Counted from the stretch's first letter, positions 11,474-32,841 are shown. The stretch: 64,000 bases of DNA from Phyllosticta citribraziliensis (GCF_038025025.1 NW_027117339.1:1054001-1118000); one strand, 5' to 3'. The notes: generated from the letters alone by a model not told the origin. Numbers and translations are program-made.

Positions 11474-11777
11474 TGCGGCTTGCAAACGACAATATGAGAA
11501 GCTTTGACGAGGTCAGAGGTAGTATACGAGAAAGACTTCCCCGAGGAGAAGCTCATGCGTGTGGTAGGTGAGGAGTGAAAGGAATGGAGAAGGTGGGGAG
11601 GGACGGGAGTCGAGATGGTCCGAGCGTTCACTTAGGGCTAAGAAAGTTGTGCTCCACCCAAAAAGTTCAACCACTCTGCATCGCTTTCTTGTGCAAGGCC
11701 TGCGCATTAACAGCTGCCTCCGCCTACGCCAGTTCATACCCACTCGACACATATCTACATCTTCCTCAGTTTCCACC

Positions 11778-14955: not shown

Positions 14956-15537
14956 GGTGGGTGTGGGTTTGGGTCAAGAGAGGCAGAAGTTTGTAGATGG
15001 AGATGGAAGACGAGATGTATTGGAAGGTGGCAGATGGGTTGTGAGAGTTGGAAAGTGACAAGGAAGCAGGAGGCCTTGCGAGGAAGTGAGTGGTTTCTAT
15101 AGGCAGCGTTTAGCCGTGACGTGTCTCCACTCGACTCGTGTGTGTCTCCAAACCCTGAGGCTTAGACATGGCCGCTGAGGGGAACTGTTGTGCCCCAGGT
15201 GGCCCGTGGCTCTTGCGCATCGTGACCGTATGCGGCCAGTGGCTGTGTCTTTGCCATCGCTCCGTGTAAGATCTAGAAGCAAAGGTGGAGCGCCAAGTGA
15301 GAGATGCGGCGCCGAGAAATGCCAGAGCAGCGGCGAGAGCGAAGCAGCGGTGAGAGCTGAGAGTGAAGCGACGGACCTGACGCTTCAGATGATGGCAGCC
15401 AGGGCAGGCTCAGGGCAGGGCAGCGGACCGGAGGCGTTTCGACGGTTGGAGCGGGAGGCCCGGCACGTCCAACGGACCACAACAAACAGCTCAGCTCGAG
15501 CTCCCCTCATCCGCTCCAGCTCCAGCTGTCAGCCAGT

Positions 15538-15568
15538 CACAGCCACAGCCACAGCCACAGCCACAGCC
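15538..15568. repeat. (CACAGC)n hexamer microsatellite
   Basis: cacagccacagccacagc... read directly. Confidence 0.85.
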
Positions 15569-15743
15569 GAAAGCCACCCATGACGTCGTGCGTGCCCCGC
15601 CTCACGCGGACCCTGAGTCGCCGATTCTTCTCGATACCTACCTAGGTGCTGTCCCGCAGTCGGACGACGACGACGTGACAGGCTCGTTCCACTACCTGAC
15701 AACTTTTCTTCTTCCTCCCACCGTCTCCTCTTTACCCTCCAAA

Positions 15744-16847
15744 ATGGCCCCCATACCCATCACCATCATCACCGGCTTCCTCGGTTCCGGCAAGACGACG
15801 CTGATCCTCAACCTGATCCCTCAACTGCCCGCCGACTACAAGCTCGCCCTGCTCAAAAACGAGTTTGGCGATGTGGCCATAGACTCGCAACTGGCCTCCT
15901 CGGCCGCCATTTCCGGCGTCCAGGAGCTGCTCAATGGCTGCATTTGCTGCAACCTGACGGGCCAGCTGGGCGAGGCCCTCGACGAGCTGCGCAACACCGC
16001 GAACCCGGACCGTGTCGTCATCGAGACGAGCGGCAGCGCCTTCCCCGCCACGCTGGCCATGGAGGTGAACCGCCTGGCGCGCGAAACCGGAAACTTTGTG
16101 CTCGACGGCGTCATGAGCGTCGTCGACGTCGAAAACTGGCAGGGCTACGAGGACACGAGTTACAGCGCCAAGGTGCAGGCGCAATACACGGACCTGATTG
16201 TGCTCAACAAGGTCGAGCTCGTCAGCGAGCGCCGCGTCGAGGACGTCGAGGACAAGATTCGCGACTTGGAGCTCGACGTGCCCACACCTATTGTCAAGAG
16301 CACAAAGGGTCGCGTGGACAAGGACATTGTGTTTGGCTTGGACGCCAAGCTGGCGAAGAGCGCTGGTGTCACGGAGCACCACCACGACCATGACCACAAC
16401 CACTCAAACGAGGTTGAAGTCTTGTCCGTCACGCTTACTCCCACTGGCGACACTGGCGGCGTCGATGTCGAGAAGCTATCCGACCTTCTGCTCAGTGCTA
16501 CCAAGGACGAAATCTACCGCATCAAAGCCGTCCTCCACGCGACCACGCCTCCAACATCCTCCAACGGGGAACCCGCCGCCTCGGAAGCTTCAAAGACGCC
16601 AGCGCGGTATATTCTGAACTGGGCATTCGGCCGGTGGACGTACACAGCCATATCTGCCAGCTCTTTCCAGTCAGAGACGTCCTCGGGCAACGCGACGCCG
16701 CAGACCAGCCAGGAGCCGGCGCTGAGGATGACCGTCATCACAGCGCGATACGAAGCTAACAAGTGGAAGAAGCAGATTGAGACGCGCGGTTTCGTCGCCC
16801 TGGAGGGCGACGCGCCCGCCGAGCTCAAGGTTGACAGAGTCCTCTGA
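15744..16847 (+). CDS. CobW/COG0523-family G3E P-loop GTPase (putative metallochaperone); intronless
   Basis: ITGFLGSGKTT Walker A, NEFG, GCICC metal motif, IETSG, His-rich HHHDHDHNH stretch. Confidence 0.9.
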   Translation: MAPIPITIITGFLGSGKTTLILNLIPQLPADYKLALLKNEFGDVAIDSQLASSAAISGVQELLNGCICCNLTGQLGEALDELRNTANPDRVVIETSGSAFPATLAMEVNRLARETGNFVLDGVMSVVDVENWQGYEDTSYSAKVQAQYTDLIVLNKVELVSERRVEDVEDKIRDLELDVPTPIVKSTKGRVDKDIVFGLDAKLAKSAGVTEHHHDHDHNHSNEVEVLSVTLTPTGDTGGVDVEKLSDLLLSATKDEIYRIKAVLHATTPPTSSNGEPAASEASKTPARYILNWAFGRWTYTAISASSFQSETSSGNATPQTSQEPALRMTVITARYEANKWKKQIETRGFVALEGDAPAELKVDRVL

Positions 16848-17565: not shown

Positions 17566-20500
17566 TCACGCGTCGATTTCGTCGAGCGAATCAGCCCAGC
17601 TTACGCCCCCGCCCTCGCGGTTCGCTAGACTCGGGAGAGACGCTGACAAGGCCTCGAGATCGAGGGGCTTGTCTGTCTCTGTAACCGGGACTTCGTCTTC
17701 CGCGTTCGGGCCTGGGGCTCTGGTGGAATCTGCCTTTGGTGCTTCATCCTCGCTCTCCGCTCTGCTCGCGCCGCCGCTCTCACCCCTCTCCCTCTCTTCT
17801 GCTTCCGCTTCCGCCGCTTCCCAATCATCGACCGGATCTTCGCGCATCTTCTCCACCGCCTTCTTCTTGCCCTTCTCTTTGGTCCGCGCCGACGACGGCG
17901 CCAGGACCGTGTACCCGTTACTGCTAGTCGGGGTGCTGGATCCACTACCGTGCGGCGCTGCCGGCCTACGCACGGGAGCCGCCGCTTTCGCTGCCACCTG
18001 GCTCCAGCCGCCGTTGTCAGCCTGGTCGGTCTCGCGGTTGAGAATGTTGAGGCTGGTGTCCGTGCGGCAGAGCTGGACGGAACCTAGTCCATGTTTGCGG
18101 ACTTCGCGTGCGAGGGCTGCCTTGATGTTCTTGAGTGCGCTTTCCACGTCACGGGCGCCCATTGAGGCTGGTTGGTTCGCTCTTAGGACCACCTCGTCCG
18201 AGGGCAAGAATGAAATGTCAAATTGGATCCCAGGAACAGAATCGAGGACGGGGCGGACGCAGGACCGCAGCTCTTCGATTGTCAAGCCAAAGCGAAGCGA
18301 TGCAACGAGGAAGCTGTTGAATGGGTCGCCGAGCACATTGCTGGCTTTAAGCTTCGAGTTATCCGTAGTGGCCTTGGGCTGAGCAGTTCGCTGGTTGTAA
18401 CGGATGCGGACACACTCGCCAATTGTTTTGGAGGGCGCGCTCACGAAGCGAGGAGTCTTGTAGATCAAGACATGGCGATGAGGCGGCGGGTCCATGCTCT
18501 CCGAGTCGAGACCAAAGTCTTCAGCGAGGGCGTGTATGAATGCTCGCTGGTGCGCTGGCATGGGCTTGAAGCGGAGGCGCTTTTCTTCAGAACTACTGGC
18601 AAATACGCGGAACTCACGCTCCTGAGTCTGGGCCCATGGCACATTGCCCTGGTAGAGTGAAAGTGTCTCGGCAGAATACGGAATGTGATCGTCTTTGTTG
18701 GCGTCCGCATTGACATTGAGAGCGAGAGCAAGCTTGCGGTTCCGCTCGAGGCGTGCGCATTCGTCGTCGCACTTTAGCGACTTTTCGAGGTTCCCTTGGC
18801 TGTCTTTTGTTGCCAGGCACTTGGCCTCCTGCTTGCTGCGTTGGCAGGGACAGGTGATGTGGATCTTGTACTGGCAAGGCTTGTTCTCATCGCAAGCGTA
18901 TGGCGAATGACACGGAACTGAGCAGGGGTGTCCACACGTCTTTTCTTTACCGCACTCTTGCTTGCATGCAGTCCCAGAGTCTTCGCAGTCTCCTGGCTTG
19001 TGACAAGGTTTTCTGCACCTGTGAGCTCCACATTTGAGCTTCTTTCCGCAGATCTCTCCGCATCTTGCCTCCTGAAGCCAGCAAGGCTGGTTTTTGAGAA
19101 TGTTCTTGCCGCACATGCATGGCTTGACTGTCAAGTATGGACACTTGGGACAGGTCTCATCATCTTGATGGCAGTTGTGAGCGACTTGAGGGTGACCACA
19201 GGCTTTGGGTCTCTCGCACTCATAGCGACAGGGAGGTGGCTTTGTCCCACAAGGAAGCGGAGGCTCGAGGACAGTCCTACCACAGTGACAGCTGATTTCC
19301 TCAAAGATGGCTTCGCGGCAACTCCGGCAAGGTCCCTTGTGGCAAAGCTCTTCGCACTCGTGGGTTCCACACTTGAGAAGGCGACCGCAACGCTTGACAC
19401 AGACGTGCTCGGCCTCGACCATTTCCACTGGTATGCTGCTGTTTCCAAGCTCGTGGGGCCGACGCCTTGTTGGGCGTTTCGAAGTCCTTTCTGCTGCCTT
19501 CTTCTCGCCAGGACAGCAACGATTTCCGCAGATGTGACGACCGCAATTCATTGTGGCGCGACAGGTCCTCATACAGTGGGGCTGTTCCTCCACGCCTTGA
19601 TGACAGATAGTAGATAGATTCGTCTTTTCGCATCGGCAAGAGATTGGTGTTTTCTCCAGGCATGGCACTTGATCGCAGTCGCCCGAATGGCAAACCCGGG
19701 AACAGGCGTGACCACAAGCCAAAAGCTTGTTGCAACGCTGGCTGCAGTTTGGAATTGGGTCTTCGCAGGTGGTCCGAGGCTTGTCGGTGATTTTGCTGAG
19801 TGGAGTCTTGCCACAAGGGCAGGAGGATACCAGTTCCGGAGAGCGAGGACAGTGAGAGACTGGTTGCTCTTGTGCATGACACGGTTTCTGGCACTGATGC
19901 TTGCCACAGTCGAAATAACGGGCGCAGGCATTTGCGCAAGCAAAGACGCCAGCCCACTCTTCTACGATTTGTTCTCCATTGTCGCGTCGGTGAGTCCTCT
20001 TGCTGAACTTCTCGTCCCCACGGTCAGCACAAATCATCGGCTTTTCTTCCTGTCCGCAGTAGCAGCGGGCGTCTACCAGGACTTCACAAGCACCGCAGAA
20101 TCCTTCGTGACAAGGACGCTCGCAAAAATGCTCGCCACAAGGCATCAACTCTCCACAGACTTGGCCGCAGCTCCATCCGTTCTCGTAATCAGTGTCCAGA
20201 CATCTTTGCGTTTTGGAATCTTTGCCGCAAAAACACGATTGGTTGGGACCCATTTGACCGCATGGGGGACAAGGACCTGCATGGCAAATCTCCGGGCAGG
20301 TATGCGGGCACGACTTGGGTATGACTCGTTCCCTTCCACAAGTCTGACCGCAGGAGAATGGAGGCATTCCTGGGATAGACTTTGGATCTTGTTCTTTTTG
20401 GCACCAGCAGTTGAAGTATTTCGGGACGTTGTCTTGAGGGAGGTTACAGCCGGGACATCTCCATGGGCGGTCGCTATGTTCTGCAAGTGAATTGGATGCC

Positions 20501-21264
20501 CACTCGCCAATGCATTTCAAGTGGAAGACGGTCCAGCACGTTCTGCAAGACCACATCCGAGAATTCCTCTGGACCTCGTTTGTGCAGATGGCACATTCGT
20601 AATGTCCGTTATCAATGTCCTCGTGGACGCGAGTTGTGATATCTGGGGCTTTCGATCTGGACGCCCTACGTTTGCGAGGTCGGGCTTGCTCAAGCTCCCG
20701 TATCCGTGGGGGTTGGCCAGGTTGAAAATCCGGTGCATTCGGCTGCAATCCTTGTGCAGAAGCACCGTCTACCGCGTGGGTTCCGGTCAACTGGCCTCCG
20801 AACGTCCTCCCTTGAAAGGTTCTGATGTTTTGTCCTCGACTTGACTGTGACCCTCCGCGGCCCTGACTTTGTCCACGACGGTTTTGCGCGCCACCTCGTC
20901 CTTGCTGTCCACCGCGCCGATTCCGTCCGCCTCGAGTTGCGTTGTCGGCGCCCGCATTTGCCACGGCTGATGCAGTCCCAGTCTCTTGAGATTCTTGTCC
21001 TACCGGAGTCGACGCTGTCGCTGGAGCAGATTGCCGCGCCGGCTGCGCTGAACCTCGATTGCCCCGACCTCCTCTTCCGACTCTCCCTCCTCTCCTAGCT
21101 GGTGTTTGTGGCTGCTGCGATTGGTCTGGCTGCACAGCACCTCCCGCTGCCTCGGAAGTTTGGGCATTGTTCCTCGGTCGTGGTCCTCTGTTTCTGTTGC
21201 GCCGTGAGGTATTGGTCTCTGGTCCTGCCGGAGGCGCGACCGGAACTGTGGCCTCCGCAGGCAT
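17566..21264 (-). CDS. FAP1: NF-X1-type zinc-finger protein (Fap1/NFX1-like) with RING/PHD and R3H domains; intronless
   Basis: CAIC...CRTCWTVFHLKC...WRCPGC RING; many CGxHxCxxxCHxGxC repeats; R3H-like FKPMPAHQRAFIHALAEDFG; RGG-rich N-terminus. Confidence 0.88.
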   Translation of the reverse strand: MPAEATVPVAPPAGPETNTSRRNRNRGPRPRNNAQTSEAAGGAVQPDQSQQPQTPARRGGRVGRGGRGNRGSAQPARQSAPATASTPVGQESQETGTASAVANAGADNATRGGRNRRGGQQGRGGAQNRRGQSQGRGGSQSSRGQNIRTFQGRTFGGQLTGTHAVDGASAQGLQPNAPDFQPGQPPRIRELEQARPRKRRASRSKAPDITTRVHEDIDNGHYECAICTNEVQRNSRMWSCRTCWTVFHLKCIGEWASNSLAEHSDRPWRCPGCNLPQDNVPKYFNCWCQKEQDPKSIPGMPPFSCGQTCGRERVIPKSCPHTCPEICHAGPCPPCGQMGPNQSCFCGKDSKTQRCLDTDYENGWSCGQVCGELMPCGEHFCERPCHEGFCGACEVLVDARCYCGQEEKPMICADRGDEKFSKRTHRRDNGEQIVEEWAGVFACANACARYFDCGKHQCQKPCHAQEQPVSHCPRSPELVSSCPCGKTPLSKITDKPRTTCEDPIPNCSQRCNKLLACGHACSRVCHSGDCDQVPCLEKTPISCRCEKTNLSTICHQGVEEQPHCMRTCRATMNCGRHICGNRCCPGEKKAAERTSKRPTRRRPHELGNSSIPVEMVEAEHVCVKRCGRLLKCGTHECEELCHKGPCRSCREAIFEEISCHCGRTVLEPPLPCGTKPPPCRYECERPKACGHPQVAHNCHQDDETCPKCPYLTVKPCMCGKNILKNQPCWLQEARCGEICGKKLKCGAHRCRKPCHKPGDCEDSGTACKQECGKEKTCGHPCSVPCHSPYACDENKPCQYKIHITCPCQRSKQEAKCLATKDSQGNLEKSLKCDDECARLERNRKLALALNVNADANKDDHIPYSAETLSLYQGNVPWAQTQEREFRVFASSSEEKRLRFKPMPAHQRAFIHALAEDFGLDSESMDPPPHRHVLIYKTPRFVSAPSKTIGECVRIRYNQRTAQPKATTDNSKLKASNVLGDPFNSFLVASLRFGLTIEELRSCVRPVLDSVPGIQFDISFLPSDEVVLRANQPASMGARDVESALKNIKAALAREVRKHGLGSVQLCRTDTSLNILNRETDQADNGGWSQVAAKAAAPVRRPAAPHGSGSSTPTSSNGYTVLAPSSARTKEKGKKKAVEKMREDPVDDWEAAEAEAEERERGESGGASRAESEDEAPKADSTRAPGPNAEDEVPVTETDKPLDLEALSASLPSLANREGGGVSWADSLDEIDA

Positions 21265-21990
21265 GTTGATTGTGCGAAGAGCAACGACGTTTGCGCCAGA
21301 GGATTGAATGTTGAAGATTTCCAGGTTTTGAGAGCTGAGAGTGGTTGTAAGCAGGAGTGGCGGGCAGCGAGACTGCCGAGAGCGCTGCACTTGCAAAAAG
21401 AGAGAGTTTGGATAGGCTTCAAAAAACCAGCCTTAGGGAACGAAGTAATGAAGCAAACAAAGCAACAGTGCAAGCGAGCGGAGATACGACTCGGCCTGGG
21501 TGAAGAGTGAGGTGGCGGCAAAGCGGACGGCGTCGCTATGGGAAAGAGGCGCACTTTTGTAAGAAAGTGCAATGCTCGTTCGAGAGAGGCTATGACGCGG
21601 AGGTCCGTGCTTCGGCCCTGAGTCAGAGTGACCAGTCCGGCGATAATGCTGAGCTGTTGGCTTTGCGAGGGCGACTGAGGAGCACAGCCCAGCCTCGTGC
21701 AGGTACGGACTTTCAACCTCGAGTGAAGAACAGTCGAGGCTATGATTTTTCGCAGCGGGCGAGGCCGAGAGCGACCGCAAATGGTCGGGTGGCGGGACAA
21801 GGATCCCTGCTCGACTTAGCTCGATCTTATCGCCGTAGGCGGTGAAGCTTGAACCGGAACATTAGAACTGCCGTTGCCCCGACCTGAGGTGGCCTGAGGC
21901 GTGGGTTGGTTCCCCGGGCCGGACGTCACTCCATGCCCGAGCTACCAGAGCGGAGCATCGCTGAACAACCGCAACTGGACCATCATCATC

Positions 21991-22964
21991 ATGGCTCTCC
22001 GAACTGTGGGTGCCGTGGCTCTGTCCATTTCGGCTGCTGCTGCTTTCCAAGGAGCTTCTCCTCTGTTTGTCGTTTCGTCGTCGAGGTCGGTCTGAAACAC
22101 CATACCTGCCAACTTGTCTGCTAACTCGCCGCAGTGAACTTCCCCAACTCCAGAGCAAGAGTCTCGTCACCTCGTCCTCCGCTTCGCAATCTGTCGAACA
22201 GCTTCTTTCCGGCTGCCCATCCGATTCCTATGTCGTCGTCAATCAACCTGGTGTTTCCGTTGCCGACTACGACAACAAGTGGTCCGCGCCATGGCTGAGA
22301 AAGCAATTCCAATCCAAGGACAAGCAAACCATGACGGCCGCCATAAACGAAGTCATCGACGGACTTGACGCAGAGAACGTCACGAAATACGTCGCTGAGC
22401 ATTGTAATGCAGCGCGCGCCGAGGTGGATGCCTCAAGTGGTTACATCTCGCTCGAAGATGCTACGCCACGGGTTATCAAAATCGACTTTGCTGCTCCCCC
22501 GACGAAGCCGGAGGAGAGGTCTTCAGCGCTCATAGAGAGCGATGCTTTCCTTGATGCCGTCATGTCGAAGGTACAAGACAAGAGCTATACGCTCATCTTT
22601 ACCACCACGCCCGTCTCTGGCGGCCAGATTCCTGTGCCAAAGGAGCACGAGGTCCAATATGAGATGGAGGACTCGTATGGTCTGCACACTGAGATGAGGC
22701 GCGAGACGCGCCAACGGCCAAAAGCTTCCGAAGACGTCGCCTTGTTTGAGAAATACCAATTCCTTTCGCCCGGTATGCACTTTTTTCATTTCATTATCTC
22801 TTGTAAGCGCTAACTGGTCTCCAGGTATCTTCATGGGTCTCTTCACTGGCCTCATCCTCTTCCTCATCCTTTACGTCGGAATCAGCGCCGTCGCCGGACT
22901 TGAAGTCTCTTACTATGCGTTCAGCAAGGAGATGGGTCCTTCGGCTCAAAAGAAGCAGCAGTGA
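21991..22964 (+). CDS. BIG1 / V-ATPase S1 (Voa1/Ac45)-like ER membrane protein; exons 21991-22085, 22135-22772, 22825-22964
   Basis: Signal peptide; LFEKYQFLSPGIFMG plus a C-terminal TM helix; KKQQ ER-retrieval (KKxx) end. Confidence 0.82.
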
Positions 22965-23710
22965 ATGAATGCTTTGTGAATTCAATTCTTTGTTCAATTT
23001 GCGTCTGAGGACCATCGGGATCGGAGTTTTTTTTTTTTCAGGATCTTGTGTGTGTTCATGTACAAATCAAAGCGCCTTGGCGAGCGACTGCAGTGGTCGA
23101 GATAGGTTTAACGAGAGATTCCCATGACCTTCCGCATTCCTCAAACAGGACTTGGTTGACGCCCGTGGTTTGTTTATGGTTTGGATCCTGTTCGGGACAA
23201 AATTTGGAGTACTAGTCGTCTCCGATCGTGACCAATCAATTCTAATCAAATGAGCTGGAGCAAGAATACATCAAGACGAAGGACTCATGCTGCTCAGGGA
23301 CACGTCAATCACATTTTCAAACATGTCAAGACTGAAAAGGGAGCCGCAACCATATTGATATTGATACGACTATCCAAGAAATTGAAAAAGGCGTGACGTG
23401 CAAAGAGAGCAACCGCCCGAAGACAGTCAAACCCAGCAACATCAGCCTCGCCCCGCGTAACCCCACATTCCAACGCCTCTACTATGTATCGTCGCGGAGA
23501 GGAACGCCAGAGCCTGGTCTTGCCAACTAGTAGATCACCGAAGATAATTTTTTTGGTCGAATTTGAGGAAAGCTGTATGTACGAGAAGGGGAAGAACGGT
23601 CGTGTTGTCGAAAGGGAGAGCAGAGATGGCGACAGGGCGAGTTGGTGTGGGTTTCATCGCTCATCTACAGTCCCGTCGTGAAGGTTTCCAGAATGGCGAG
23701 GAGAGAGCGC

Positions 23711-24339
23711 TTAGAACTCGAGCTCCTCGTTGGCAGCGTCGATGACATCGGCAAGGGCCTCAGCGGCACGCTTAGCCTTGCGGCAGGGCTGGCCGGGCTT
23801 GACGCAGAAGCGCCACTTGAAGCCGTATCCGGCCTCAGCATCGGCCTCGGGGGCAGCGAGGGCATCGGCGATGGCATCAGCAGCACGCTTGACACGGACG
23901 GCGTGCTCGAAGTCGGAGACGGGCTCAGCACCACGCTTCTCGAGCTGGCCAAGGGCTGATGTTGGTCAGTCAGGGGGCAGTTCAATACCAAGGGGGAGGA
24001 GGTTTACATACCGAGCTCGCTGGCCTCAGCACCAGCAGCAGCGTAGGCATCAGAGACGGCATCAGCGATGGCGTCGGCGTGACGCTTGGCCATGCGGCAG
24101 GGCTGGCCGGGCTTCTGGCAGAAACGCCAGATACGGCCGACCCAACCCTTGGTGGGGCCCTTCTTGGGGTCAGCCTCAGCGTTGGGGGCAGCAAGGGCGA
24201 AAGCGGCGGCGTCAGCAGCACGCTTGACCTTGTCGCAAGGTTGACCGGGCTGGAGGCAGAAAGCCTGAGCGTCAGGGGTGGCAGCCGCGTAGGCACCGAC
24301 GATGGTGATAGCACCAGCAATGACGGAGGTAACCTTCAT
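23711..24339 (-). CDS. ppg1: Alpha-factor-like peptide pheromone precursor (ppg1/ccg-4/ppgA type); exons 24012-24339 and 23711-23955
   Basis: Signal peptide; three FCxxPGQPC units, each followed shortly by a KR Kex2 site; X-A/X-P dipeptide spacers (DA, EA, AP); GTATGT..CTGAC..CAG intron. Confidence 0.85.
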
Positions 24340-24428
24340 GATTGTTGTTTGGGGGGTGTCGGTTTGGTAGTGAGTGAATGCAGACCGTTGGTAGAGAAGA
24401 AAATCCATCTGGCTGCTCAAGACCGGGA

Positions 24429-25010
24429 TTTATACAAAATCCATGATCATTGAGGCGTGGTGTTTGTGCTGCCGTCAATAGGCTTCAATAGAGGACCGAA
24501 ACTTCAATAAGGTGAAAACTCGATAAAGAGTGGCAGCCAAAGGCGGAAAACTGCGAAAGAGAAGAATGAAATAGTGAAGAATTCGAGGCTATCAGTACAA
24601 GCCAAAAGATAGGGTAGTGTTGCAACAGGAAATCGTTTGAGCAATGTCTGGACCGGTACAACTGGGCTGGCCGACTCCCATAGGCAAGGGTGGGTTGACG
24701 ACAGGACACCAGGCTCGCAAATCCAACGTAATAAACGGATTCCTTTCTGGTATGTCCGTAGTACATCCTGTCTTACATTACCCACTCATTTGTTTTGTCA
24801 AACCCAAGGACCACCATCGCAGCAGCATCGCCTCTGCGAGGCCGTATCCTAATTCTCATGGTGTAAACTTTGACCAGCGGCATCGGGAAATTTTCCAAGT
24901 TCACGATGTGGTTCGCGTGGCTCTGGCGGGGAGTGGAGTTCAATGAACCGGAAGTAGTTCTCAATAGCAGGTGGATGCCAAATCGGGTTAGCCCAAAGGT
25001 TGCTCAATAA
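24429..25010 (-). promoter_or_regulatory. Pheromone-gene promoter: TATA (TATAAA, ~24429-24434) and clustered TCAATAR / CTATTGA-like sites
   Basis: gtcaatag 24474, ttcaatag 24484, ttcaataa 24503, ctcaatag 24960, ctcaataa 25003 (plus-strand spelling). Confidence 0.6.
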
Positions 25011-25605
25011 CAACCCGGACCAAGATGTGAGGATTTGGCTTCCCATAAGCTGTGAAACTAAGGTTGATGAGCTTTGTTCTTTGGCAATCGTCTGAAAGAA
25101 GCCGAAGCAAACGGCTTGCTCCTATTCTGGTGGCAGTTGAATTTCTATCATCTTGTGTCTTGGCAACGCGCTGCTTGCGAGATGGCTTGCTTGCCGAGAG
25201 ACCGGGGACCACGCGCATCTTAGGTATGGCTTCAATCTTGTGTTTCCAAGCTCTTCGGGTATTTGATGAGTGGGCTCCAGAGGTAGCATTATGTCCTAGG
25301 TCTGAGAAAAGGCGAAGTACTTTTCTGGTGCATGCAAATGGAAGCAATCTTGCATGTGCTTCGATGACCAGAGCTTCAGCATCGATATTCCGGATAAGAT
25401 GGTATCAGTGAGGTTAGAAAGAACCTGCTTGTTAGAATAGAAGCCCAGATGTTGGTTGCCCAAAGATGGTCGACGTTAGGTTCGGTCAGACAGCCCCACC
25501 GACCGGGCCGGCTGCACGGACCGGACGCGGACCGCGTCCGTTGGTGTCGTCACCCGACGTGAACGCGCCGCACGATTTGTTGATCTGGTCAATCGTCTTT
25601 GCGCC

Positions 25606-27697
25606 ATGCGCTCTCTGTTTTCCAGCGCAACGAAGCGCAAAGTCCTCATTGATCGCTCGGCTTGGGTTTGCAAACAATGCATACTTCGCTCTCAGCTCAG
25701 AAGGAGCTTTGCGACTGCAACGGCAGTGAGCGATGAGAAGAAGTACTTCATCACCACACCTATTTTTTACGTCAATGCTGGTATTTTCCCGTGGGTATGG
25801 TTCAAACTCGAATACTGACCAGCAATGCGTAGCTCCTCATGTCGGCCACCTCTACACGATGGTCCTCGCGGACATTCTCAAGCGCTGGCAAGTCCTGAGA
25901 GGAAAGAATGCCCTTCTGTGCACAGGCACCGATGAGCATGGACTCAAGGTCCAGCAAGCTGCGACGAAGGCTGGCATGCCAGGTCAGCTCTTTTGCGACA
26001 AAGGCGCCGAAGTCTTCAAGAATCTGGCTGCGCGCGGCCACATCTCCAACGATCATTTTGTCCGGACAACCGACCAACAACACAAGGACGGCGTGAAGTT
26101 TGCATGGGTAGGATGGAGGCAATGGTCCGTTTCCTGGGCTACATGCTCACGCATATACAGGAAGTCCTGGAAAAACGTGGATATATCTACTTGTCCAAGC
26201 ATGAAGGATGGTACTCTATCAGCGACGAGACTTTCTATCCCGCGTCACAGGTTCATCTGATCATAGATCCTGCGACTGGCAAGAAAGTCATGGTATGGAT
26301 TCAAGTCGTCGATAATTGGATCTTTCTCTGACAATGACTAGGCATCTAAAGAAACAGGCAAAGAAGTCGAATGGACAACCGAAACAAACTACCACTTCCA
26401 ACTATCGGCTTTCCGGGACAAGCTTTTGGACTTCTACCGAGAGAATCCTGAATGGATTGTGCCGCGGTTCCGTATGGACGAGGTTGTGCAGTCTGTCACT
26501 GAAGGCCTCTCAGACTTGTCCATTTCGAGGCCAGGCTCTAGGTTGAGGTGGGCAATCCCAGTTCCGACCGACGACCAGCAAAGGATATATGTATGGTTGG
26601 ACGCTCTCCTCAACTACGCCACGACCATTGGGTTCCCTTGGGCGCCAGACTCAGAAACATCAAACGTGCCGCCCGTTGAGCCTGGCCAAGGCGATGCAAA
26701 TAACCCAACGGAGGTTACTGAGGACGCGACAAAGACACAAAAAGAGGATGAGGCTGCGCTTAACAACTCAGGCGATAATCTGGTAGATTTATACAGAGGG
26801 TCCTCGGAAATGACCTCTAGTGGCTGGCCCCCTGACTGTCACGTCATTGGCAAGGACATCATGCGGTTCCATTGCGTTTACTGGCCGGCATTTTGCATGG
26901 CGCTGGGCCTCCCCTTGCCACGACGCATCCTTGCCACCAGTCACTGGATCATGGGCAAACAAAAGATGTCAAAATCACTCGGAAACGTTGTGAATCCCTT
27001 TTCTGTACTCGAGCGCTTTGGACCGGACGCGATGCGCTTCTACCTGGCGCACGACGGCGGCATCAACAACGACTCCAACTACAGCAACCACTACGTAATT
27101 GCACACTACCGAAAGAGTCTCCAAAACGGCATGGGCAATCTGACGCAACGAATTACCAGAGGCAGAGGGTTTGATCTGCGAAGAGCAGTCGTGTCTTCGG
27201 AGCAAAACAAGCCCAAAGAAAAAGGCCGAGAGAATCAGCAGGCTGCTCGTCGGCACTGGAAGATGCTGGAAAGCGTTGCAAACGACGTCGACGCAAAAAT
27301 GCAACAATACGACGTTAGCGGTGCCCTCCGAACGACAATGGAGGCCATCTACGAGACCAACCGTTATCTGCAGGAAGCTGCGCCGTGGACCTTTGTAATC
27401 AAGGAGAAGCCTGTCGTGGACTCAGGGACTGAGATGCCAGAAGTGGCCATCGTCAAAGATCGAAACTTGCCACATGTCGATCGCACTATTTACAACTGCG
27501 CGGAGACGCTGCGCATTACGGGCATTCTGCTCCAGCCGTACATGCCGGCGAAGATGAAGACGCTGCTTGACCTACTCGGCGTCGCAGAGGATAGAAGAAC
27601 GCTCCATGATGCCCGTCCCGGTGCGGACAAGGACTATGGTGTTCCCAAGATAGATCCGCTGAAGGTTATGCTGTTTCCCAAAATTGTTGAAACATAG
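25606..27697 (+). CDS. MSM1: Mitochondrial methionyl-tRNA synthetase; introns 25781-25832, 26108-26160, 26293-26341
   Basis: Arg/Ser-rich presequence; YFITTPIFYVNAAPHVGH (HIGH motif), GTDEHG, YVWLDAL, IGKDIMRFH, KMSKS. Confidence 0.93.
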
Positions 27698-28202: not shown

Positions 28203-29798
28203 TCACACGTGCATCTCCGAAGTACCCGCGGGAAACTTCGCAATCTCGTCCTCGGCAGGGAGCCTCTGTTTCTGCAGCTTCGCGGCCACGGCATCGACTT
28301 CGTCCCAGACGCGCAAAACGTTCTGTCCGACAATCTTGGCCACGTCGGCGTCGCTGACGCCCTGCCTGAGAAGCTCGGCGACCAAGTCCGGGAACTTGCT
28401 CACGTCCTCGAGGCCCTCGGGCGTGCCCTCGATGCCGTCGTAGTCGGTCCCGAGGCCAACATGGTCATAGCCAATCAGCTCGCCAATGTGCTTGATGTGG
28501 CGGACGACCTGGTGCAACGTGACGTTTGGCTTGTACAAGTCGGGGATGCCGGTGCCGTCGTTGGACTCGGTGCACGAGATGAAGTCGGGGTTGAAGTTGA
28601 CGAGCACGACGGCGTTGCGCATCTTGACCAGCTTCAGGATGTAGTCGGGCACGTTGCGCGGGTGCGGGCACAGGGCGTAGGCAGAGCTGTGGCTGAAGAT
28701 GGGCGGCGCGATGCTGCCCGCCCAGTCGCCGTCTTCGGTGCCGCTCAGGACGTCGCGCATCGTGTCGGTGCTGACGTGCGACAGGTCGACTATCATTCCC
28801 AGACGATTCATCTCTTCGATGAGCACGCGGCCAGCGGGAGAAACACCGCCCCATTTGGGGGTGCTTTTGACCCCCCGGTTCTTTTCGTCGATGGTGACAG
28901 CGGCATCGGCGTAGATGTTGTGGCAGTTCCATGTCAGGGTTGCGTAGCGTACGCCGAGCCGGTGGAAGAGGCGGAGTGTCGATAGCGAGTTGCCGATTTG
29001 ATGCAGACCTTCAATGATGACGGGAGATATGAAGCCTCTCTCTTTGAAGGCGCGGCGGGCAGCCGCAGCATTGGGAGTAGGTGTAAAGTACTTGGGATAA
29101 GCCTGGCCAAGACGATGGTACAGGTCGAGCTGTTCGAGGGTCGCTTTGACAACTGCACAAGGCAAATCAATTTGACGAAGTCTCTCAACTTCATGACCAG
29201 AGACGACTTTCAACCTGTGAAGATGTGGCGTAGAGGGATCACTCCTAGGTTTCGAGAAAGGAGACACGGAAATTCAACATACTCGGAGCGTAGGCTGCAT
29301 CTGAGAAATCGGAGCCATTGGCAGGACACGGCTCAAAGGCGCTCCAAAAGGCACCACCGCTCAGTCCAGCCTCGAGCCTAGGAATGTCGGTGTGCTGCTC
29401 CAGCCCGCCATTCTCAAACTTTTTCTTGAAGTCCTCACCGTAGACGTGGTCTCCGTACAGCGCTCGCAGGACGATGAAGAGGTCATTGTGTCCGTCTGTT
29501 TATCGTCAGAGAACCGGGCTTCTGAATGAGCACGTCATCATGAATGACCTATCAATGGGTTCTGTCTCAAGATCTTGTGAGCGCGATATTCGATTGACGA
29601 GCAGTCTTCTCGCAGACACCTGACAAGGTTGTGGTCGGAGAATTGGACGTAAATAGCGCCCAGAATAAAGGCTGGCAACACAATGAAGTTGAGGATAAGG
29701 CTTAGAGGCGAGCGAGCCGCCCGATGCAGAGCATGGCGCTTCTCAGAAGGCGTAGGGCTTGATTGCTTTAAGTTCACTTCGGATTTTTCAGTGGGCAT
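28203..29798 (-). CDS. Membrane dipeptidase (peptidase M19) with an N-terminal TM anchor; introns 29496-29548 and 29153-29282
   Basis: PLIDGHND, IEGLHQIG, TLTWNCHN, MIVDLSH, FSHSSA, HPRNVPD, GTDYDG. Confidence 0.9.
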
Positions 29799-30115
29799 GT
29801 CGTCGATGATGGAGTAGCTTGAGCATTGGAAGGGAACGGTAACGTACAGAGCATGACGGGAAGTGTAAAGAGTTGTTGAGGGCGTCAATAGCGGGAGCTT
29901 CCCACTCTTGGCCCAGGCCGGGCGGGGATACGCGGACTTTGTTTGGAGGTGCAGGCCTGGGGCATCCATGACGGAGACGGAGAATCGTCCGTGCGTTCCG
30001 CGATCCCTGGTGTGGATCGTGGTCGACGCGGCGAACTTCGGTGGTGAGGTGGTGAAGCTGTCCTCAACCAAGCAACAAGCAGCACACGACCACCACTGTC
30101 CTTTCCACCTCCACA

Positions 30116-30755
30116 ATGGCCATCTTTTCGGCCTTCAACCTCATCCGGGCCATGAGTGCCTTCCATATGACTCTGTCTTACTTTCTGCTCAACGCGCCGA
30201 AAAAGATTGCAGACCAGAACCTTGTCTTCCTTCTGGGCGAAGCCATGCGCATTGTACGATGCCCTTCCAACTCCCTTGCAGCGGTGACCACATAGCTAAC
30301 CACCTCTTCCGCCACCACCAGTCCGAGCCCACCGGCTTCGCCAAGCCGAGTTCTGCCACGGCCATAGCCGCAGTCTTCCTCGCGTTCTGGGCCGTCTCGG
30401 ACGTCCTGGCCGTGTCCATGGACGAAGACGTCGCCTTTCCCTACTGGGCCAACCAGATTCCGACCCGCCTGCTCTTCCTCTTCGGCATCACCAGCTATTC
30501 GTACTTTTTCAAGCCGTCGGGGCTGGCCTTTGCCCCTGGTCCGGGAGATTTCTTGAAGAACAGGGTTGTCTTTACCTGGGGCTTCTTCGAGTGCACAATG
30601 TGGTTCTGGGTATGTTTCGGGTTCACTGTTGGGCCAATGCTCTCGCTGACAAGTCATGGCAGGCATACATTCGCATGCGCGAAGAAAAGTTTGAATTTGC
30701 GAAGCGCCTATTTGAGAGGAGGAAGAAGGAAGCAGCGGCCTTGAGGGACGACTGA
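30116..30755 (+). CDS. ILM1: ILM1-like multi-pass membrane protein; exons 30116-30253, 30322-30609, 30663-30755
   Basis: MAIFSAFNLIR...IADQNLVFLLGEAM; YWANQIPTRL; LKNRVVFTWGFFE...MREEK; in-frame canonical introns. Confidence 0.75.
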
Positions 30756-31023: not shown

Positions 31024-31677
31024 TCAAGTGTCTTTCTCAGGCGTCCCAGAAAGCGAACCCATCTCCTGAATCGTCTCCAGAACTGTTTCTCTCACCCCCA
31101 TCAGGGATTGCCTTCTTCCCTGTGTGAATGATATGCGCTCGTCCAGGGCCTCTTCGTAGTCTTGACGCGCCACGCTGAAGCGCCACTTTGCTGTTCTGAA
31201 CTCTGAGACACCTTTGGCCTGTTTCATCGAATCTTTCGCCTGTACCATCATGTCTAGTCGATTCTCGACAGCAACTCGAAGGTCCTCATCTTGAGCCTGC
31301 TCAGCGCGCCTTATTTCTGCCAGCCTTTCGGCCTCTTCATGCCGCCGTCTCTCCTCCACATGCTGCCGCCGGTGTTGCTCTTCCCTCTCCGCATGCCACT
31401 GCCGGTGTCCCTCTTCCTCCTCGGCATGCCGCTGTCGCTGTCTTTCTTTCTCCACGGCACGCCGCTGTCGCCGTCTCTCTTCTGATTCGGCACGCCGATG
31501 CTGTTGCCGTCTCGCTTCCTCGCGCGCTCGTTCTTCGGCCGGCTGCTGCCAGACCCGTGCCTCTTGTTCCGCTCGTCCATATCGCCCCCACGCGTCGGCC
31601 GGCAAGACCTGTACCGACTTAGGATGTACAGGTCGACGCCGGCGAATAAAGCGCAAGATGCGCTTTAGCAAGCCCAT
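31024..31677 (-). CDS. Hypothetical Arg/Glu/Gln-rich coiled-coil protein with ~11-aa degenerate repeats
   Basis: ~217-codon ORF from MGLLKRILRFIRRRR; 33-nt repeat units; no recognised domain. Confidence 0.45.
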   Translation of the reverse strand: MGLLKRILRFIRRRRPVHPKSVQVLPADAWGRYGRAEQEARVWQQPAEERAREEARRQQHRRAESEERRRQRRAVEKERQRQRHAEEEEGHRQWHAEREEQHRRQHVEERRRHEEAERLAEIRRAEQAQDEDLRVAVENRLDMMVQAKDSMKQAKGVSEFRTAKWRFSVARQDYEEALDERISFTQGRRQSLMGVRETVLETIQEMGSLSGTPEKDT

Positions 31678-32841
31678 TATCGGGGGTTGCGACAGGCGGT
31701 TGATTGTGCGGCGTGAGAGTGAGTTTTTGGGTATGGATCGCGCCAACTGTGATGGCTTGCTGGAAGTGTCGGACAATTTTGAGGACGGACGGCGATGAAA
31801 GAGATGCTCCTCGGTGGATCGAATCAAGTGAGGTTTTGGTGCGCCACTGTTTTGCCTCTGGCGATGTGTGTGTCGACTGAATTTGTATGCGTAGCGAATG
31901 GGGATGGTAGCGAATTAGGAGAGCGAATGAGGACGTGTAGCGAATAGTTGAACGAATGAGTGGTCGAAGCAGTAGTATCAGAATGATCGTTTGAATGCTG
32001 GTGTATGTGTTTATGTGGGACTCCCTGGTTGTAAACCATGGTTGCAGCTCTTGGGCGGCCTTCAAGGAGCACGCTCCTTCCTTTCCATGCTCTTTTTGCC
32101 TTGCCCCTTCCCGAGCACATGATTCCAGCGCTCTTGCTAGCTCAATCTTCAGTCGCTTGGGCTCTGCGCATTGTGCCTGTGGCTGGGTGAGTCGGCGTTG
32201 ATATAGATGCTTAGGTCCAATAAACCACAGAGCATTGTCTGCATACTTGGATTGGGTGGGAGAGGTATTGAGAAGCGGGATGGACAACAAATTTCGAAGC
32301 TGGGCTTTGGGTGCTTTGAGGTTTGGCATCCATGTGGTGGGAAGACAGGGGCGACAGACGATGCGGTAGAGGGAGAGGCGCAGGGAAAGGGGAAGCGGTT
32401 GGCCGATCCCGGACGCTTCCAAGCACGGAACAGTCTTCCTGGTTCCTGGGATGTATTTGTCTTGTACAAATGCACCGTGATATCAATCAATATCAGAGTC
32501 AGCATATCAGAGAAGGCAACCGGAAAGCGCATCTTGTCACAAGACTCATTGAAATCATGTTGGATCCCACAAGCGGAGCGTCAACGACCTGCACGGCCGA
32601 ATGTTTTTTCATTGCGCATAGTAGAGTGTATGCGGGCCTCAGCTACGGGGCGAGGACGTGGTATCAAGCCCATTGACAACAACGCCCACCAACCGACCGA
32701 CCCATTTGGAAAACTTTTTGTCGACTGCAAGCCGCACTGGCTGGCGAAAACCCCGGCGGCCGAACCCTCCTCGAACCGAATTGCTTTGGTGGCGCAAATC
32801 AAATGCTCAATTCATCAAGATCGAGATCGAGATCGAGACGC

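What the first reader, a model, noticed from the sequence alone, without database searches (positions are those of the whole stretch)
23711..24339. Pheromone-type Kex2-repeat precursor encoding three different Cys-bridged peptides
Seen: after splicing, the secreted precursor holds FCLQPGQPCDKV-KR, ...KKGPTKGWVGRIWRFCQKPGQPCRMA-KR and GYGFKWRFCVKPGQPCRKA-KR, plus a Cys-free unit (GAEPVSDFEHAVRV-KR). Known: ascomycete alpha-pheromones follow a WCxxxGQxC pattern, are cut by Kex2/Ste13/Kex1, and often occur as near-identical repeats. Here the core begins with F, the copies differ, and two carry basic or aromatic N-terminal extensions that X-A/X-P trimming would not remove. Inference: a diversified peptide set, possibly with distinct Ste2 specificities or extra (e.g. 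membrane-active) roles. The ORF track misses this gene as a unit.
Basis: partly seen in the sequence, partly recalled or inferred. Interest (0 to 1): 0.7.

Follow-up and report, generated by a model that had tools for sequence, protein, structure and literature searches.

The report
Alpha-type mating pheromone precursor gene
This is a real, spliced and transcribed gene of the citrus-leaf fungus Phyllosticta citribraziliensis that encodes the usual secreted precursor of the fungal alpha-type mating pheromone, and most of the features that looked odd are common in its relatives.

Summary
A two-exon gene on the minus strand (24339..24012, 23955..23711; 56-nt GT..AG intron) encodes a 190-aa protein. 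It is identical to an NCBI 'uncharacterized protein' of Phyllosticta citribraziliensis. The predicted splice joint is present in contigs of three runs.

The protein belongs to the ccg-4/ppg1 alpha-type pheromone precursor family. phmmer found 181 relatives, almost all built from xCxxPG[QE]xC-x-K-x-KR units. Named hits include 'pheromone' proteins of Pseudogymnoascus, Sporothrix and Colletotrichum. Published Pseudogymnoascus destructans alpha-factor repeats have the same F-first 12-mer form.

The claimed oddities are family-standard: F-first cores, a 3-residue tail before KR, N-terminal extensions and non-identical copies. The Cys-free unit is a decayed fourth loop unit.

What remains unusual is modest. 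The two main peptides are predicted to be the most cationic in the family (+7, +5). Their sequence is conserved across the citricarpa clade.

Verdict: a new member of a known kind. Receptor activation, processing and mating-type control were not tested. The scan's earlier notes hold nothing on look-alike DNA.

The parts
24012..24339 (-). Exon 1: start codon at 24339..24337, codons 1-109 plus the first base of codon 110
   Evidence: Translation. Identical to residues 1-109 of P0003.
23956..24011 (-). Intron, 56 nt, GTATGT...CTGAC...CAG, phase 1
   Evidence: Sequence. The joint 23955/24012 is seen in contigs of X1, X3 and X4.
23711..23955 (-). Exon 2: codons 110 (last two bases) to 190, plus stop TAA at 23713..23711
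   Evidence: Translation. The 190-aa product equals P0003.
24286..24339 (-). Probable signal peptide, about residues 1-18 (MKVTSVIAGAITIVGAYA). It is followed by AA-TP-DA-QA, four X-A/X-P dipeptides.
   Evidence: Read directly. The MKVTS-hydrophobic start is shared by relatives. No signal-peptide predictor was available.
24226..24261 (-). Unit 1 (leader unit), residues 27-38, FCLQPGQPCDKV, followed by KR 39-40
   Evidence: Conserved in P. citricarpa, P. citriasiana and P. citrichinensis. Similar leader units occur in P. capitalensis and B. dothidea.
24088..24165 (-). Unit 2, residues 59-84, KKGPTKGWVGRIWR + FCQKPGQPCRMA, followed by KR 85-86. It is preceded by nine in-register X-A/X-P dipeptides (residues 41-58).
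   Evidence: One in-frame insertion at its N-terminal end is the only change against P. citricarpa and P. citriasiana.
23891..23932 (-). Cys-free unit, residues 118-131, GAEPVSDFEHAVRV, followed by KR: the relic of a fourth loop unit
   Evidence: It aligns with a complete unit in P. capitalensis. It aligns with B. dothidea DFCHDEGQPCYRMKR with a 5-residue gap. The spacer after it is 80% identical in DNA to the spacer after unit 1. 4 of 14 residues differ from P. citricarpa and P. citriasiana.
23774..23830 (-). Unit 3, residues 152-170, GYGFKWR + FCVKPGQPCRKA, followed by KR 171-172. It is preceded by nine in-register X-A/X-P dipeptides (residues 134-151).
   Evidence: Identical in P. citricarpa and P. 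citriasiana.
24429..24434 (-). TATAAA about 90 nt upstream of the ATG. The RNA-library contigs of X3 and X4 end at 24424 and 24379.
   Evidence: Sequence and contig ends, table 8. Contigs cannot define a transcription start, so this is a weak inference.

Best explanation
This is the alpha-type (ppg1/ccg-4/MF-alpha-like) mating pheromone precursor gene of Phyllosticta citribraziliensis.

Inferred pathway, from what is established for this family:
- The signal peptide takes the 190-aa precursor into the secretory pathway.
- A Kex2-type protease cuts after the five KR pairs (residues 39-40, 85-86, 116-117, 132-133, 171-172).
- A Kex1-type carboxypeptidase removes the trailing K and R.
- A Ste13-type dipeptidyl aminopeptidase removes the in-register X-A/X-P dipeptides.

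This would release three two-cysteine PGQPC loop peptides. One is a leader-unit peptide, FCLQPGQPCDKV. The other two are variants of the main repeat, sharing WRFCxKPGQPCRxA and carrying basic or aromatic N-terminal extensions. They would be sensed by the Ste2-type receptor of the partner.

The gene derives from a four-unit precursor of two alternating unit types, as still seen in P. capitalensis. The third unit has decayed into the Cys-free segment.

Shown here: gene structure, splicing, transcription, family membership, and conservation of the peptide units. Inferred: processing sites, secretion, receptor and mating role.
For: **Gene and transcript**
- Gene structure and product.
- The spliced joint appears in three runs of three studies, two of them RNA libraries.

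**Family membership**
- phmmer against 1.84 billion representatives gave 181 hits at E<=0.001 and 55 at E<=1e-10.
- Of 215 retrieved proteins, 204 carry at least one xCx(2-5)G[QE]xC core and 178 carry two or more.
- Named relatives: P. destructans VC83_06943 (UniRef 'Pheromone', E=1.3e-27), Mollisia 'clock-controlled pheromone', Sporothrix 'pheromone precursor protein' (4.5e-13) and Colletotrichum 'clock-controlled pheromone ccg-4'.

**Published parallels**
- PMC10569646 (passages and Table S3 read) describes the family rules: signal peptide, X-A/X-P sites, KR sites, GQ/PG turn. It lists WCGRPGQPC, RCGHPGQPCG and, for P. destructans, FCWRLGQPCDKV, FCWRPGQICEKA and FCWRPGQPCGKV.
- PMC6339444 (passages read) reports two-Cys alpha pheromones in 13 non-Pleosporales Dothideomycetes and RFCHLPGQGCSK in Xylona.

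**Processing signals**
- Both spacers before units 2 and 3 are nine consecutive X-A/X-P dipeptides in register (read).

**Constraint on the peptides**
- Against P. citricarpa and P. citriasiana, 1 of 57 peptide-unit positions differs, versus 14 of 133 elsewhere (Fisher p=0.04).
- In a close relative's transcript (X4), 9 of 9 listed CDS substitutions are synonymous.

**Copy number and strain**
- Only one family member per Phyllosticta species was retrieved.
- The sequenced P. citribraziliensis strain is reported heterothallic MAT1-1 (PMC6859488 and PMC9073689, passages). I recall, without having checked it here, that this is the mating type which expresses alpha-type pheromone in heterothallic Pezizomycotina.
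Against: - No peptide product, receptor activation or mating-type-dependent expression was tested.
- No genome is held, so the Ste2-type receptor and a possible second precursor gene could not be sought.
- Pfam has no model that hits the protein.
- Only three loop units remain and no two are identical. Among relatives with 3 or more cores, 41 of 114 have all cores identical.
- By a crude processing rule, units 2 and 3 would be much longer and more cationic than is usual for the family. This could point to a role beyond receptor signalling.
- No Ste12-type TGAAACA element lies between the gene and the next gene upstream (0 of the window's 8 matches fall in 24340-25700).
- The kind of run X1 is a guess, and contig depth cannot rank expression.
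Confidence: 0.85

Rival explanations
1. Same family, but the citricarpa-clade peptides have gained a second, non-mating job. Examples would be membrane-active or antimicrobial action, or autocrine or chemotropic signalling. The long Trp/Arg/Lys-rich N-terminal extensions would provide it.
For: - The predicted unit 2 peptide (26 aa, net +7) exceeds all 583 predicted units from other genera, whose maximum is +6.
- Unit 3 (19 aa, +5) is matched by only 1.2% of them.
- The P. capitalensis units carry +1 to +2.
- The extensions are conserved: the only change against P. citricarpa and P. citriasiana is one inserted residue.
- PMC6339444 notes sex-independent roles of alpha pheromones in other fungi (passage).
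Against: - The processing rule is crude. A cut at the KK pair, or at a single Arg, would shorten the peptides.
- Basic or aromatic extensions are common in the family. Examples are VYGRLRNWIG-FC..., RWGVQG-FC... and KYNGHLR-WC....
- No activity data exist.
- Conservation is equally explained by receptor recognition.
Confidence: 0.1
2. A pheromone gene in decay. The locus is losing units in this Phyllosticta clade and may no longer give a working signal.
For: - One unit has decayed to the Cys-free segment.
- In the P. citrichinensis protein model, unit 2 is read out of frame: residues 59-79 match the window's alternate frame at 18 of 21 positions. Its unit 3 has GQLC.
- Only three loop units are left, against four in P. 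capitalensis.
Against: - In P. citribraziliensis, P. citricarpa and P. citriasiana, all 36 core-plus-tail residues are identical.
- Substitutions in close relatives' transcripts are nearly all synonymous.
- The gene is spliced and transcribed.
- P. citricarpa is reported to mate in the laboratory (PMC6859488, passage).
Confidence: 0.04
3. A Kex2-processed repeat protein of another kind: a precursor of a modified peptide (ustiloxin or dikaritin type), or a secreted effector.
For: It has the general KEP architecture of signal peptide plus KR-separated short units. Pfam gives no hit.
Against: - None of 47 open frames scanned between 11.5 and 39.4 kb gave a tailoring-enzyme domain. The neighbours are NF-X1/R3H, methionyl-tRNA synthetase, an M19 dipeptidase, Ilm1, CobW and WD40 proteins.
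- The X-A/X-P trimming signature is described as generally dedicated to maturing alpha-type pheromones in Ascomycota, and as absent from the Ascomycota precursors of toxic cyclic peptides and from epichloecyclin precursors (PMC6339444, passage).
- The protein is clearly homologous to pheromone precursors.
Confidence: 0.01

Closest known systems
Alpha-factor pheromone precursors of Leotiomycetes, especially Pseudogymnoascus destructans (PMC10569646, Table S3; protein P0164)
   Same: - Homologous by sequence (E=1.3e-27).
- F-first core and 12-residue units that include a 3-residue tail before KR.
- A leader unit ending in DKV.
- Non-identical units in one precursor: FCWRLGQPCDKV, FCWRPGQICEKA, FCWRPGQPCGKV.
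- X-A/X-P spacers.
   Different: - P. destructans has five units, three of them identical, with cores placed directly behind the X-A/X-P signals.
- The Phyllosticta gene has three loop units, none identical. Two carry 7- and 14-residue basic or aromatic extensions.
ccg-4/ppg1 alpha-type pheromone precursors of Sordariomycetes (named hits from Sporothrix, Colletotrichum, Stachybotrys, Cercophora)
   Same: - The family is detected by HMMER.
- Shared build: signal peptide, a leader unit directly behind it followed by KRAAEA..., repeated xCxxxGQxC units and KR sites.
   Different: - They are longer (about 240-300 aa), with a long non-repeat spacer after the leader unit.
- Their cores mostly end in CW.
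- The mating function of ccg-4/ppg1 is recalled from the literature and was not checked here.
Two-cysteine alpha pheromones of non-Pleosporales Dothideomycetes, and Xylona heveae RFCHLPGQGCSK (Le Marquer et al. 2019, PMC6339444)
   Same: - Same class-level group.
- Two conserved cysteines.
- An R-F-C start as in Phyllosticta WRFC.
   Different: - Phyllosticta and other Botryosphaeriales pheromone sequences were not found in that paper's held supplements. The terms searched gave 0 hits, apart from Macrophomina in the species list.
- Figure 6 of the paper could not be seen.
Orthologue in Phyllosticta capitalensis (P0157/P0156/P0009, 'hypothetical protein')
   Same: - Same gene by alignment.
- Same leader unit type (FCQMPGQACSKL).
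- Same alternating tails ...K[VL]-KR-AA[DE]A and ...KA-KR-[HA]ADA.
- Same central spacer HADAIADAV.DAYAAAG.
   Different: - P. capitalensis keeps four loop units, three with an identical core (KGLH-FCYFPGEPCSK[AV]) and net charge +1 to +2.
- The citricarpa clade lost one unit, and the two remaining main units differ and are strongly cationic.
Kex2-processed repeat proteins that give modified peptides (ustiloxin, phomopsin, epichloecyclin type)
   Same: Signal peptide and short units separated by KR.
   Different: - No tailoring-enzyme genes lie nearby.
- This precursor has the Ste13-type X-A/X-P signature, which the paper says is absent from the Ascomycota precursors of toxic cyclic peptides and from epichloecyclin precursors (PMC6339444 passage).

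Membership tests
Alpha-type (MF-alpha/ppg1/ccg-4) pheromone precursor | N-terminal signal peptide | tested here: inconclusive
   The N-terminus is MK + VTSVIAGAITIVGA + AYA, and the same MKVTS-hydrophobic start occurs in relatives. No signal-peptide predictor was available, so this rests on reading the sequence.
Alpha-type (MF-alpha/ppg1/ccg-4) pheromone precursor | Several short peptide units, each followed by a Kex2 dibasic site | tested here: met
   Three loop units and one relic are each followed by KR; there are five KR pairs in all. DNA repeats of 88 nt (3 copies) and 59 nt (5 copies) were found.
Alpha-type (MF-alpha/ppg1/ccg-4) pheromone precursor | Ste13-type X-A/X-P dipeptides ahead of the units | tested here: met
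   Residues 41-58 and 134-151 are each nine consecutive X-A/X-P dipeptides in register, and residues 19-26 are four (read). The rule is as stated in PMC10569646.
Alpha-type (MF-alpha/ppg1/ccg-4) pheromone precursor | Unit core of the Pezizomycotina type (two Cys around a GQ/PG turn) | tested here: met
   The cores are FCLQPGQPC, FCQKPGQPC and FCVKPGQPC. Published repeats include WCGRPGQPC, RCGHPGQPCG and FCWRPGQPCGKV.
Alpha-type (MF-alpha/ppg1/ccg-4) pheromone precursor | Sequence homology to accepted family members | tested here: met
   phmmer gave 181 hits. Named 'pheromone' or 'ccg-4' proteins scored E=1.3e-27 to 9.6e-6.
Alpha-type (MF-alpha/ppg1/ccg-4) pheromone precursor | Transcribed, with expression governed by mating type | tested here: inconclusive
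   Spliced transcripts are present. Dependence on mating type could not be tested. The sequenced strain is reported as MAT1-1.
Alpha-type (MF-alpha/ppg1/ccg-4) pheromone precursor | Released peptides activate the Ste2-type receptor and are needed for mating | not testable with these tools
   No genome is held, and no receptor sequence or assay is available.
Modified-peptide (ustiloxin/dikaritin-type) KEP precursor | Clustered tailoring enzymes (DUF3328/UstYa oxidases, tyrosinase, methyltransferase) | tested here: not met
   None was found in 47 open frames scanned between 11.5 and 39.4 kb. Small or intron-split genes could have been missed.

The most novel reading that the evidence does not exclude
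In the P. citricarpa clade the alpha-pheromone gene changed from a leader unit plus identical repeats, the form still seen in P. capitalensis. It now gives three different peptides. Two of them are the longest-tailed and most cationic predicted in the whole family (+7 and +5), and they are frozen in sequence across at least three species. These Trp/Arg/Lys-rich extended peptides may act beyond Ste2 signalling, for example as membrane-active or antimicrobial agents or as self-signalling cues on the leaf. Alternatively, the three peptides may be read differently by the receptor.
Probability: 0.1. Interest if true: 0.5.

Novelty: new member of a known kind. Interest (0 to 1): 0.25.

Why it matters
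Public records name this protein and its orthologues in P. citricarpa, P. citriasiana, P. citrichinensis and P. capitalensis only 'uncharacterized' or 'hypothetical'.

I found no open paper that pairs Phyllosticta with a fungal pheromone gene. 'Pheromone' occurs 0 times in PMC6859488 and PMC9073689. The 2020 paper on the Phyllosticta mating-type locus is not held.

Naming the gene gives a handle on mate recognition in a genus where mating biology matters for citrus black spot epidemiology.

The peptide units are identical in three species of the citricarpa clade, so this pheromone cannot by itself tell those species apart. The Leotiomycetes study reports the same pattern within families.

Beyond that, the finding is ordinary.

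Tried and rejected
- **Whole-genome search** for further copies or for the receptor: no genome is held.
- **Pfam** on both exon products: no family.
- **Tailoring-enzyme cluster:** none in 47 open frames.
- **Promoter motifs:** TGAAACA occurs 8 times in the window against 9.4 expected, and none lies in 24340-25700. CTTTGWW occurs 43 times against 34 expected, with one site (25072) upstream. Neither is informative.
- **Earlier scan notes by sequence:** nothing.
- **Petters-Vandresen et al. 2020** (Phyllosticta mating-type loci): not held, so I cannot say whether it names pheromone genes.
- **Le Marquer et al. supplements:** no Phyllosticta, Guignardia or Botryosphaeria entry and no PGQPC string.
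- **Contig depth:** 174 in X1. It was not used as a measure of expression, because contig depth cannot rank genes.
- **My recollection of thallism:** I recalled that P. citribraziliensis is homothallic. That was wrong; both papers call it heterothallic.
- **A call with the wrong strand setting** was repeated correctly.

Full report
**1. Observation**

The gene lies on the minus strand. Exon 1 (24339..24012) translates to MKVTSVIAGAITIVGAYAAATPDAQAFCLQPGQPCDKVKR...FCQKPGQPCRMAKR...AEASEL. Exon 2 (23955..23711) translates to ...LGQLEKRGAEPVSDFEHAVRVKR...GYGFKWRFCVKPGQPCRKAKRAAEALADVIDAANEELEF*.

Between them lies a 56-nt intron (24011..23956) with GTATGT, a CTGAC branch-like site and CAG. It is in phase 1. 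The spliced product equals a 190-aa database protein at 100% identity: 'uncharacterized protein J3D65DRAFT_664713 [Phyllosticta citribraziliensis]'. So the window comes from that fungus or a near-identical strain, and public annotation already has the gene as one unit.

The pattern CCNGGNCARCCNTGY (PGQPC) occurs three times in 64 kb, all in this gene. Shuffles gave 0.04 on average, and 0 of 100 reached three. Direct DNA repeats of 88 nt (3 copies, 66-77% identical to the reference copy) and 59 nt (5 copies) show the gene was built by unit duplication.

**2. Transcription and splicing**

Contigs of four runs were laid on 23500-24600. The joint 23955/24012 (skips 56; CT..AC on the + strand, which is GT..AG on the minus strand) is present in one contig each of X1, X3 and X4.

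- X1: 2273 nt, 0 differences from the window.
- X3: RNA-Seq library.
- X4: metatranscriptome.
- X7: covers only part of exon 2.

The kind of run X1 is a guess, but X3 and X4 are on record as RNA. The X3 and X4 contigs differ from the window by a few percent and so come from relatives. X4 carries a 3-nt insertion at 24162 that matches the extra Trp of the P. citricarpa and P. citriasiana proteins.

I classed the substitutions listed, table 3, that fall inside the CDS:

| Run | Synonymous | Note |
|---|---|---|
| X4 | 9 of 9 | |
| X3 | 10 of 12 | the other two sit in codon 59, beside indels |
| X7 | 2 of 2 | |

The table omits differences near contig ends, so these are not complete counts.

**3. 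Surroundings**

Forty-seven open frames between 11.5 and 39.4 kb were scanned against Pfam (15, 32). The hits are housekeeping-type genes:

| Position | Strand | Pfam hit |
|---|---|---|
| 17566-21432 | - | NF-X1 zinc finger / R3H |
| 25730-27697 | + | methionyl-tRNA synthetase |
| 28203-29273 | - | M19 dipeptidase |
| 29869-30744 | + | Ilm1 |
| 15393-16847 | + | CobW |
| 11568-13361 | + | WD40 |
| 34917-36329 | - | CHY zinc finger |

Nothing resembles a peptide-tailoring cluster.

**4. Relatives**

phmmer with the exon 1 product against 1.84 billion representatives gave 181 proteins at E<=0.001, 55 at E<=1e-10 and 2 at E<=1e-30. A second search with the full protein gave 83 hits.

I examined 215 retrieved proteins: the best 150, the hits, and cluster members, Phyllosticta included. 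The two exon translations were left out. Of these, 11 have no xCx(2-5)G[QE]xC core, 26 have one and 178 have two or more.

Named hits:
- Pseudogymnoascus destructans VC83_06943 (UniRef 'Pheromone', E=1.3e-27).
- Mollisia scopiformis and Cercophora ('Clock-controlled pheromone').
- Sporothrix brasiliensis 'pheromone precursor protein' (4.5e-13).
- Colletotrichum 'clock-controlled pheromone ccg-4'.
- Botryosphaeria dothidea, which is in the same order as Phyllosticta by my recollection.
- Several lichen fungi.

Orthologues exist in P. citriasiana and P. citricarpa (191 aa), P. citrichinensis (173 aa) and P. capitalensis (211-221 aa). All are named 'uncharacterized' or 'hypothetical'.

**5. Literature**

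PMC10569646 (passages and Table S3 read) states the family rules. These are a signal peptide, repeats of 9-14 residues preceded by X-A/X-P sites and followed by KR/RR/KK, and a GQ or PG turn. It notes that additional residues sometimes lie between the repeat and the Kex site.

It lists WCGRPGQPC for 31 of 36 Sclerotiniaceae, and RCGHPGQPCG and RCGYPGQPCG. For P. destructans it lists FCWRLGQPCDKV, FCWRPGQICEKA and FCWRPGQPCGKV (three times). That is the same F-first 12-mer with a 3-residue tail, a DKV leader unit and non-identical copies.

PMC6339444 (passages read) reports that 13 non-Pleosporales Dothideomycetes have alpha pheromones with two conserved cysteines, like Leotiomycetes and Sordariomycetes. 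It gives RFCHLPGQGCSK for Xylona heveae. Its held supplements contain no Phyllosticta or Botryosphaeria entry.

**6.

- **F-first core.** F starts 222 of 682 cores, against 260 for W. It is the commonest first residue in 83 proteins, against 64 for W.
- **Copies differ.** Among 114 precursors with 3 or more cores, 41 have all cores identical, 57 are mixed and 16 have all different. Three of the 16 are the citricarpa-clade orthologues. Where a repeat occurs at least twice, the first unit differs from it in 16 of 83 precursors.
- **Residues after the second Cys.** A 3-residue tail before the dibasic pair is found in 520 of 658 cores from other genera.
- **N-terminal extensions.** By a simple rule (distance back to a dibasic pair or to the end of two X-A/X-P dipeptides), 252 of 658 cores have 3 or more extra residues, 278 have none, 119 have 1-2 and 9 have no signal found. 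Examples repeated within one precursor are VYGRLRNWIG-FCGVPGQAC, GLLRAGNFGN-WCIAPGQMC, RWGVQG-FCHRVGQPC and KYNGHLR-WCYRRGQAC.

**7. Anatomy and history of this gene**

Alignment with P. capitalensis shows four positions for loop units with alternating tails. In P. capitalensis the four units are:
- unit 1: ...SKL-KR-AADA
- unit 2: ...SKA-KR-HADA
- unit 3: ...SKV-KR-AAEA
- unit 4: ...SKA-KR-AADA

Units 2-4 share the core in KGLH-FCYFPGEPCSK[AV].

In the window's gene the corresponding tails are DKV-KR-AADA, RMA-KR-HADA, (relic) VRV-KR-AADA and RKA-KR-AAEA. Four results show that the Cys-free segment GAEPVSDFEHAVRV stands where unit 3 should be:
- It aligns with that unit in P. capitalensis.
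- BLASTP aligns DFEH-----AVRVKRAADAIADA with B. dothidea DFCHDEGQPCYRMKRAAEAIAEA.
- The DNA after it is 80% identical to the spacer after unit 1.
- It is the fastest-changing part: 4 of 14 residues differ from P. citricarpa and P. citriasiana.

It is a decayed unit, not a fourth conserved product.

The two remaining main units share WRFCxKPGQPCRxA and differ at two positions plus their extensions. Their PGQPC codons are identical (CCCGGCCAGCCCTGC), while unit 1 uses CCCGGTCAACCTTGC.

**8. Constraint**

Between P. citribraziliensis and P. citricarpa or P. citriasiana, 1 of 57 positions in the three units (extension, core and tail) differs, and that one is an inserted Trp at the start of unit 2's extension. 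Elsewhere 14 of 133 positions differ (Fisher p=0.04).

The peptides are thus conserved across species reported as heterothallic (PMC6859488 and PMC9073689, passages). They cannot by themselves distinguish those species.

In the P. citrichinensis protein model, residues 59-79 match the alternate reading frame of the window's unit 2 (18 of 21), and unit 3 reads GQLC. That species is reported as homothallic with a displaced MAT1-2 idiomorph. I saw only the protein model, not its DNA.

**9. What remains unusual**

I applied one crude processing rule to all units: a cut after KR or RR, trimming of X-A/X-P runs, and an end before the next [KR]R. Under it the 583 predicted units from 186 proteins of other genera have a median length of 13 (IQR 12-16) and a median net charge of +2 (IQR 1-2, maximum +6).

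| Predicted peptide | Length | Net charge | Units from other genera that reach this |
|---|---|---|---|
| KKGPTKGWVGRIWRFCQKPGQPCRMA (unit 2) | 26 aa | +7 | 0 of 583 by charge; 2.7% by length |
| GYGFKWRFCVKPGQPCRKA (unit 3) | 19 aa | +5 | 1.2% by charge |

The rule is mine and untested. A cut at the KK pair followed by removal of G-P would shorten unit 2.

**10. Mechanism**

Shown:
- a spliced, transcribed gene;
- membership of the alpha-type pheromone precursor family;
- conserved peptide units with KR and X-A/X-P signals in register.

Inferred from the family's established pathway (PMC6339444 and PMC10569646, passages):
- entry into the ER;
- Kex2 cuts after five KR pairs;
- Kex1 and Ste13 trimming;
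- secretion of three loop peptides;
- recognition by the partner's Ste2-type receptor.

Whether the two cysteines form a disulfide was not tested, and I did not check the literature on it.

**11. Verdict**

The pheromone-precursor reading is supported. The claims of novelty are largely removed by the relatives. This is a new, so far unnamed, member of a known kind, with an unusually cationic pair of predicted peptides as the only feature worth a follow-up.

Noticed in passing
P0005 (P. citrichinensis orthologue) versus window 24088-24165: In the public protein model, residues 59-79 match the alternate frame of the window's unit 2 (18 of 21), so unit 2 appears deleted or frameshifted in that species. 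Its unit 3 reads GQLC instead of GQPC. This could be real decay in a species reported as homothallic, or a faulty gene model. No DNA was seen.
   Followed up: partly
Proteins P0018, P0163, P0185 (lichen-forming fungi Agyrium, Vezdaea, Ptychographa): Clear members of this pheromone-precursor family carry the public name 'putative serine/threonine protein phosphatase', which looks like an annotation error. The earlier scan note e1-7652314 describes a lichen-fungus precursor of six two-cysteine loop peptides in an 'undescribed family'. It may belong to this same family; I did not test that.
   Followed up: no
window about 23088-25416 (extent of the X1 contig): The spliced, 100%-identical X1 contig is 2273 nt long. 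It runs about 410 nt below 23500 and about 815 nt above 24600, far beyond the 573-nt CDS. Possible causes are long untranslated regions, overlapping neighbouring transcripts or assembly across genes. Contigs cannot tell these apart.
   Followed up: no
window 21965-22813 (+) and 31024-32482 (-): Long open frames (282 aa; 296 and 287 aa) near the gene have no Pfam match. They were not examined further.
   Followed up: no
P0118 (Botryosphaeria dothidea, 298 aa): This precursor from B. dothidea keeps GQPC-type units only at its two ends (VCDEPGQPCYALRR and FCHDEGQPCYRMKR). Its internal repeats are YCHFRGSACP-KKR and YCRFRGSACP-KKR, which lack the GQ turn. The conserved end units and the repeated middle units may therefore have different roles.
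   Followed up: partly
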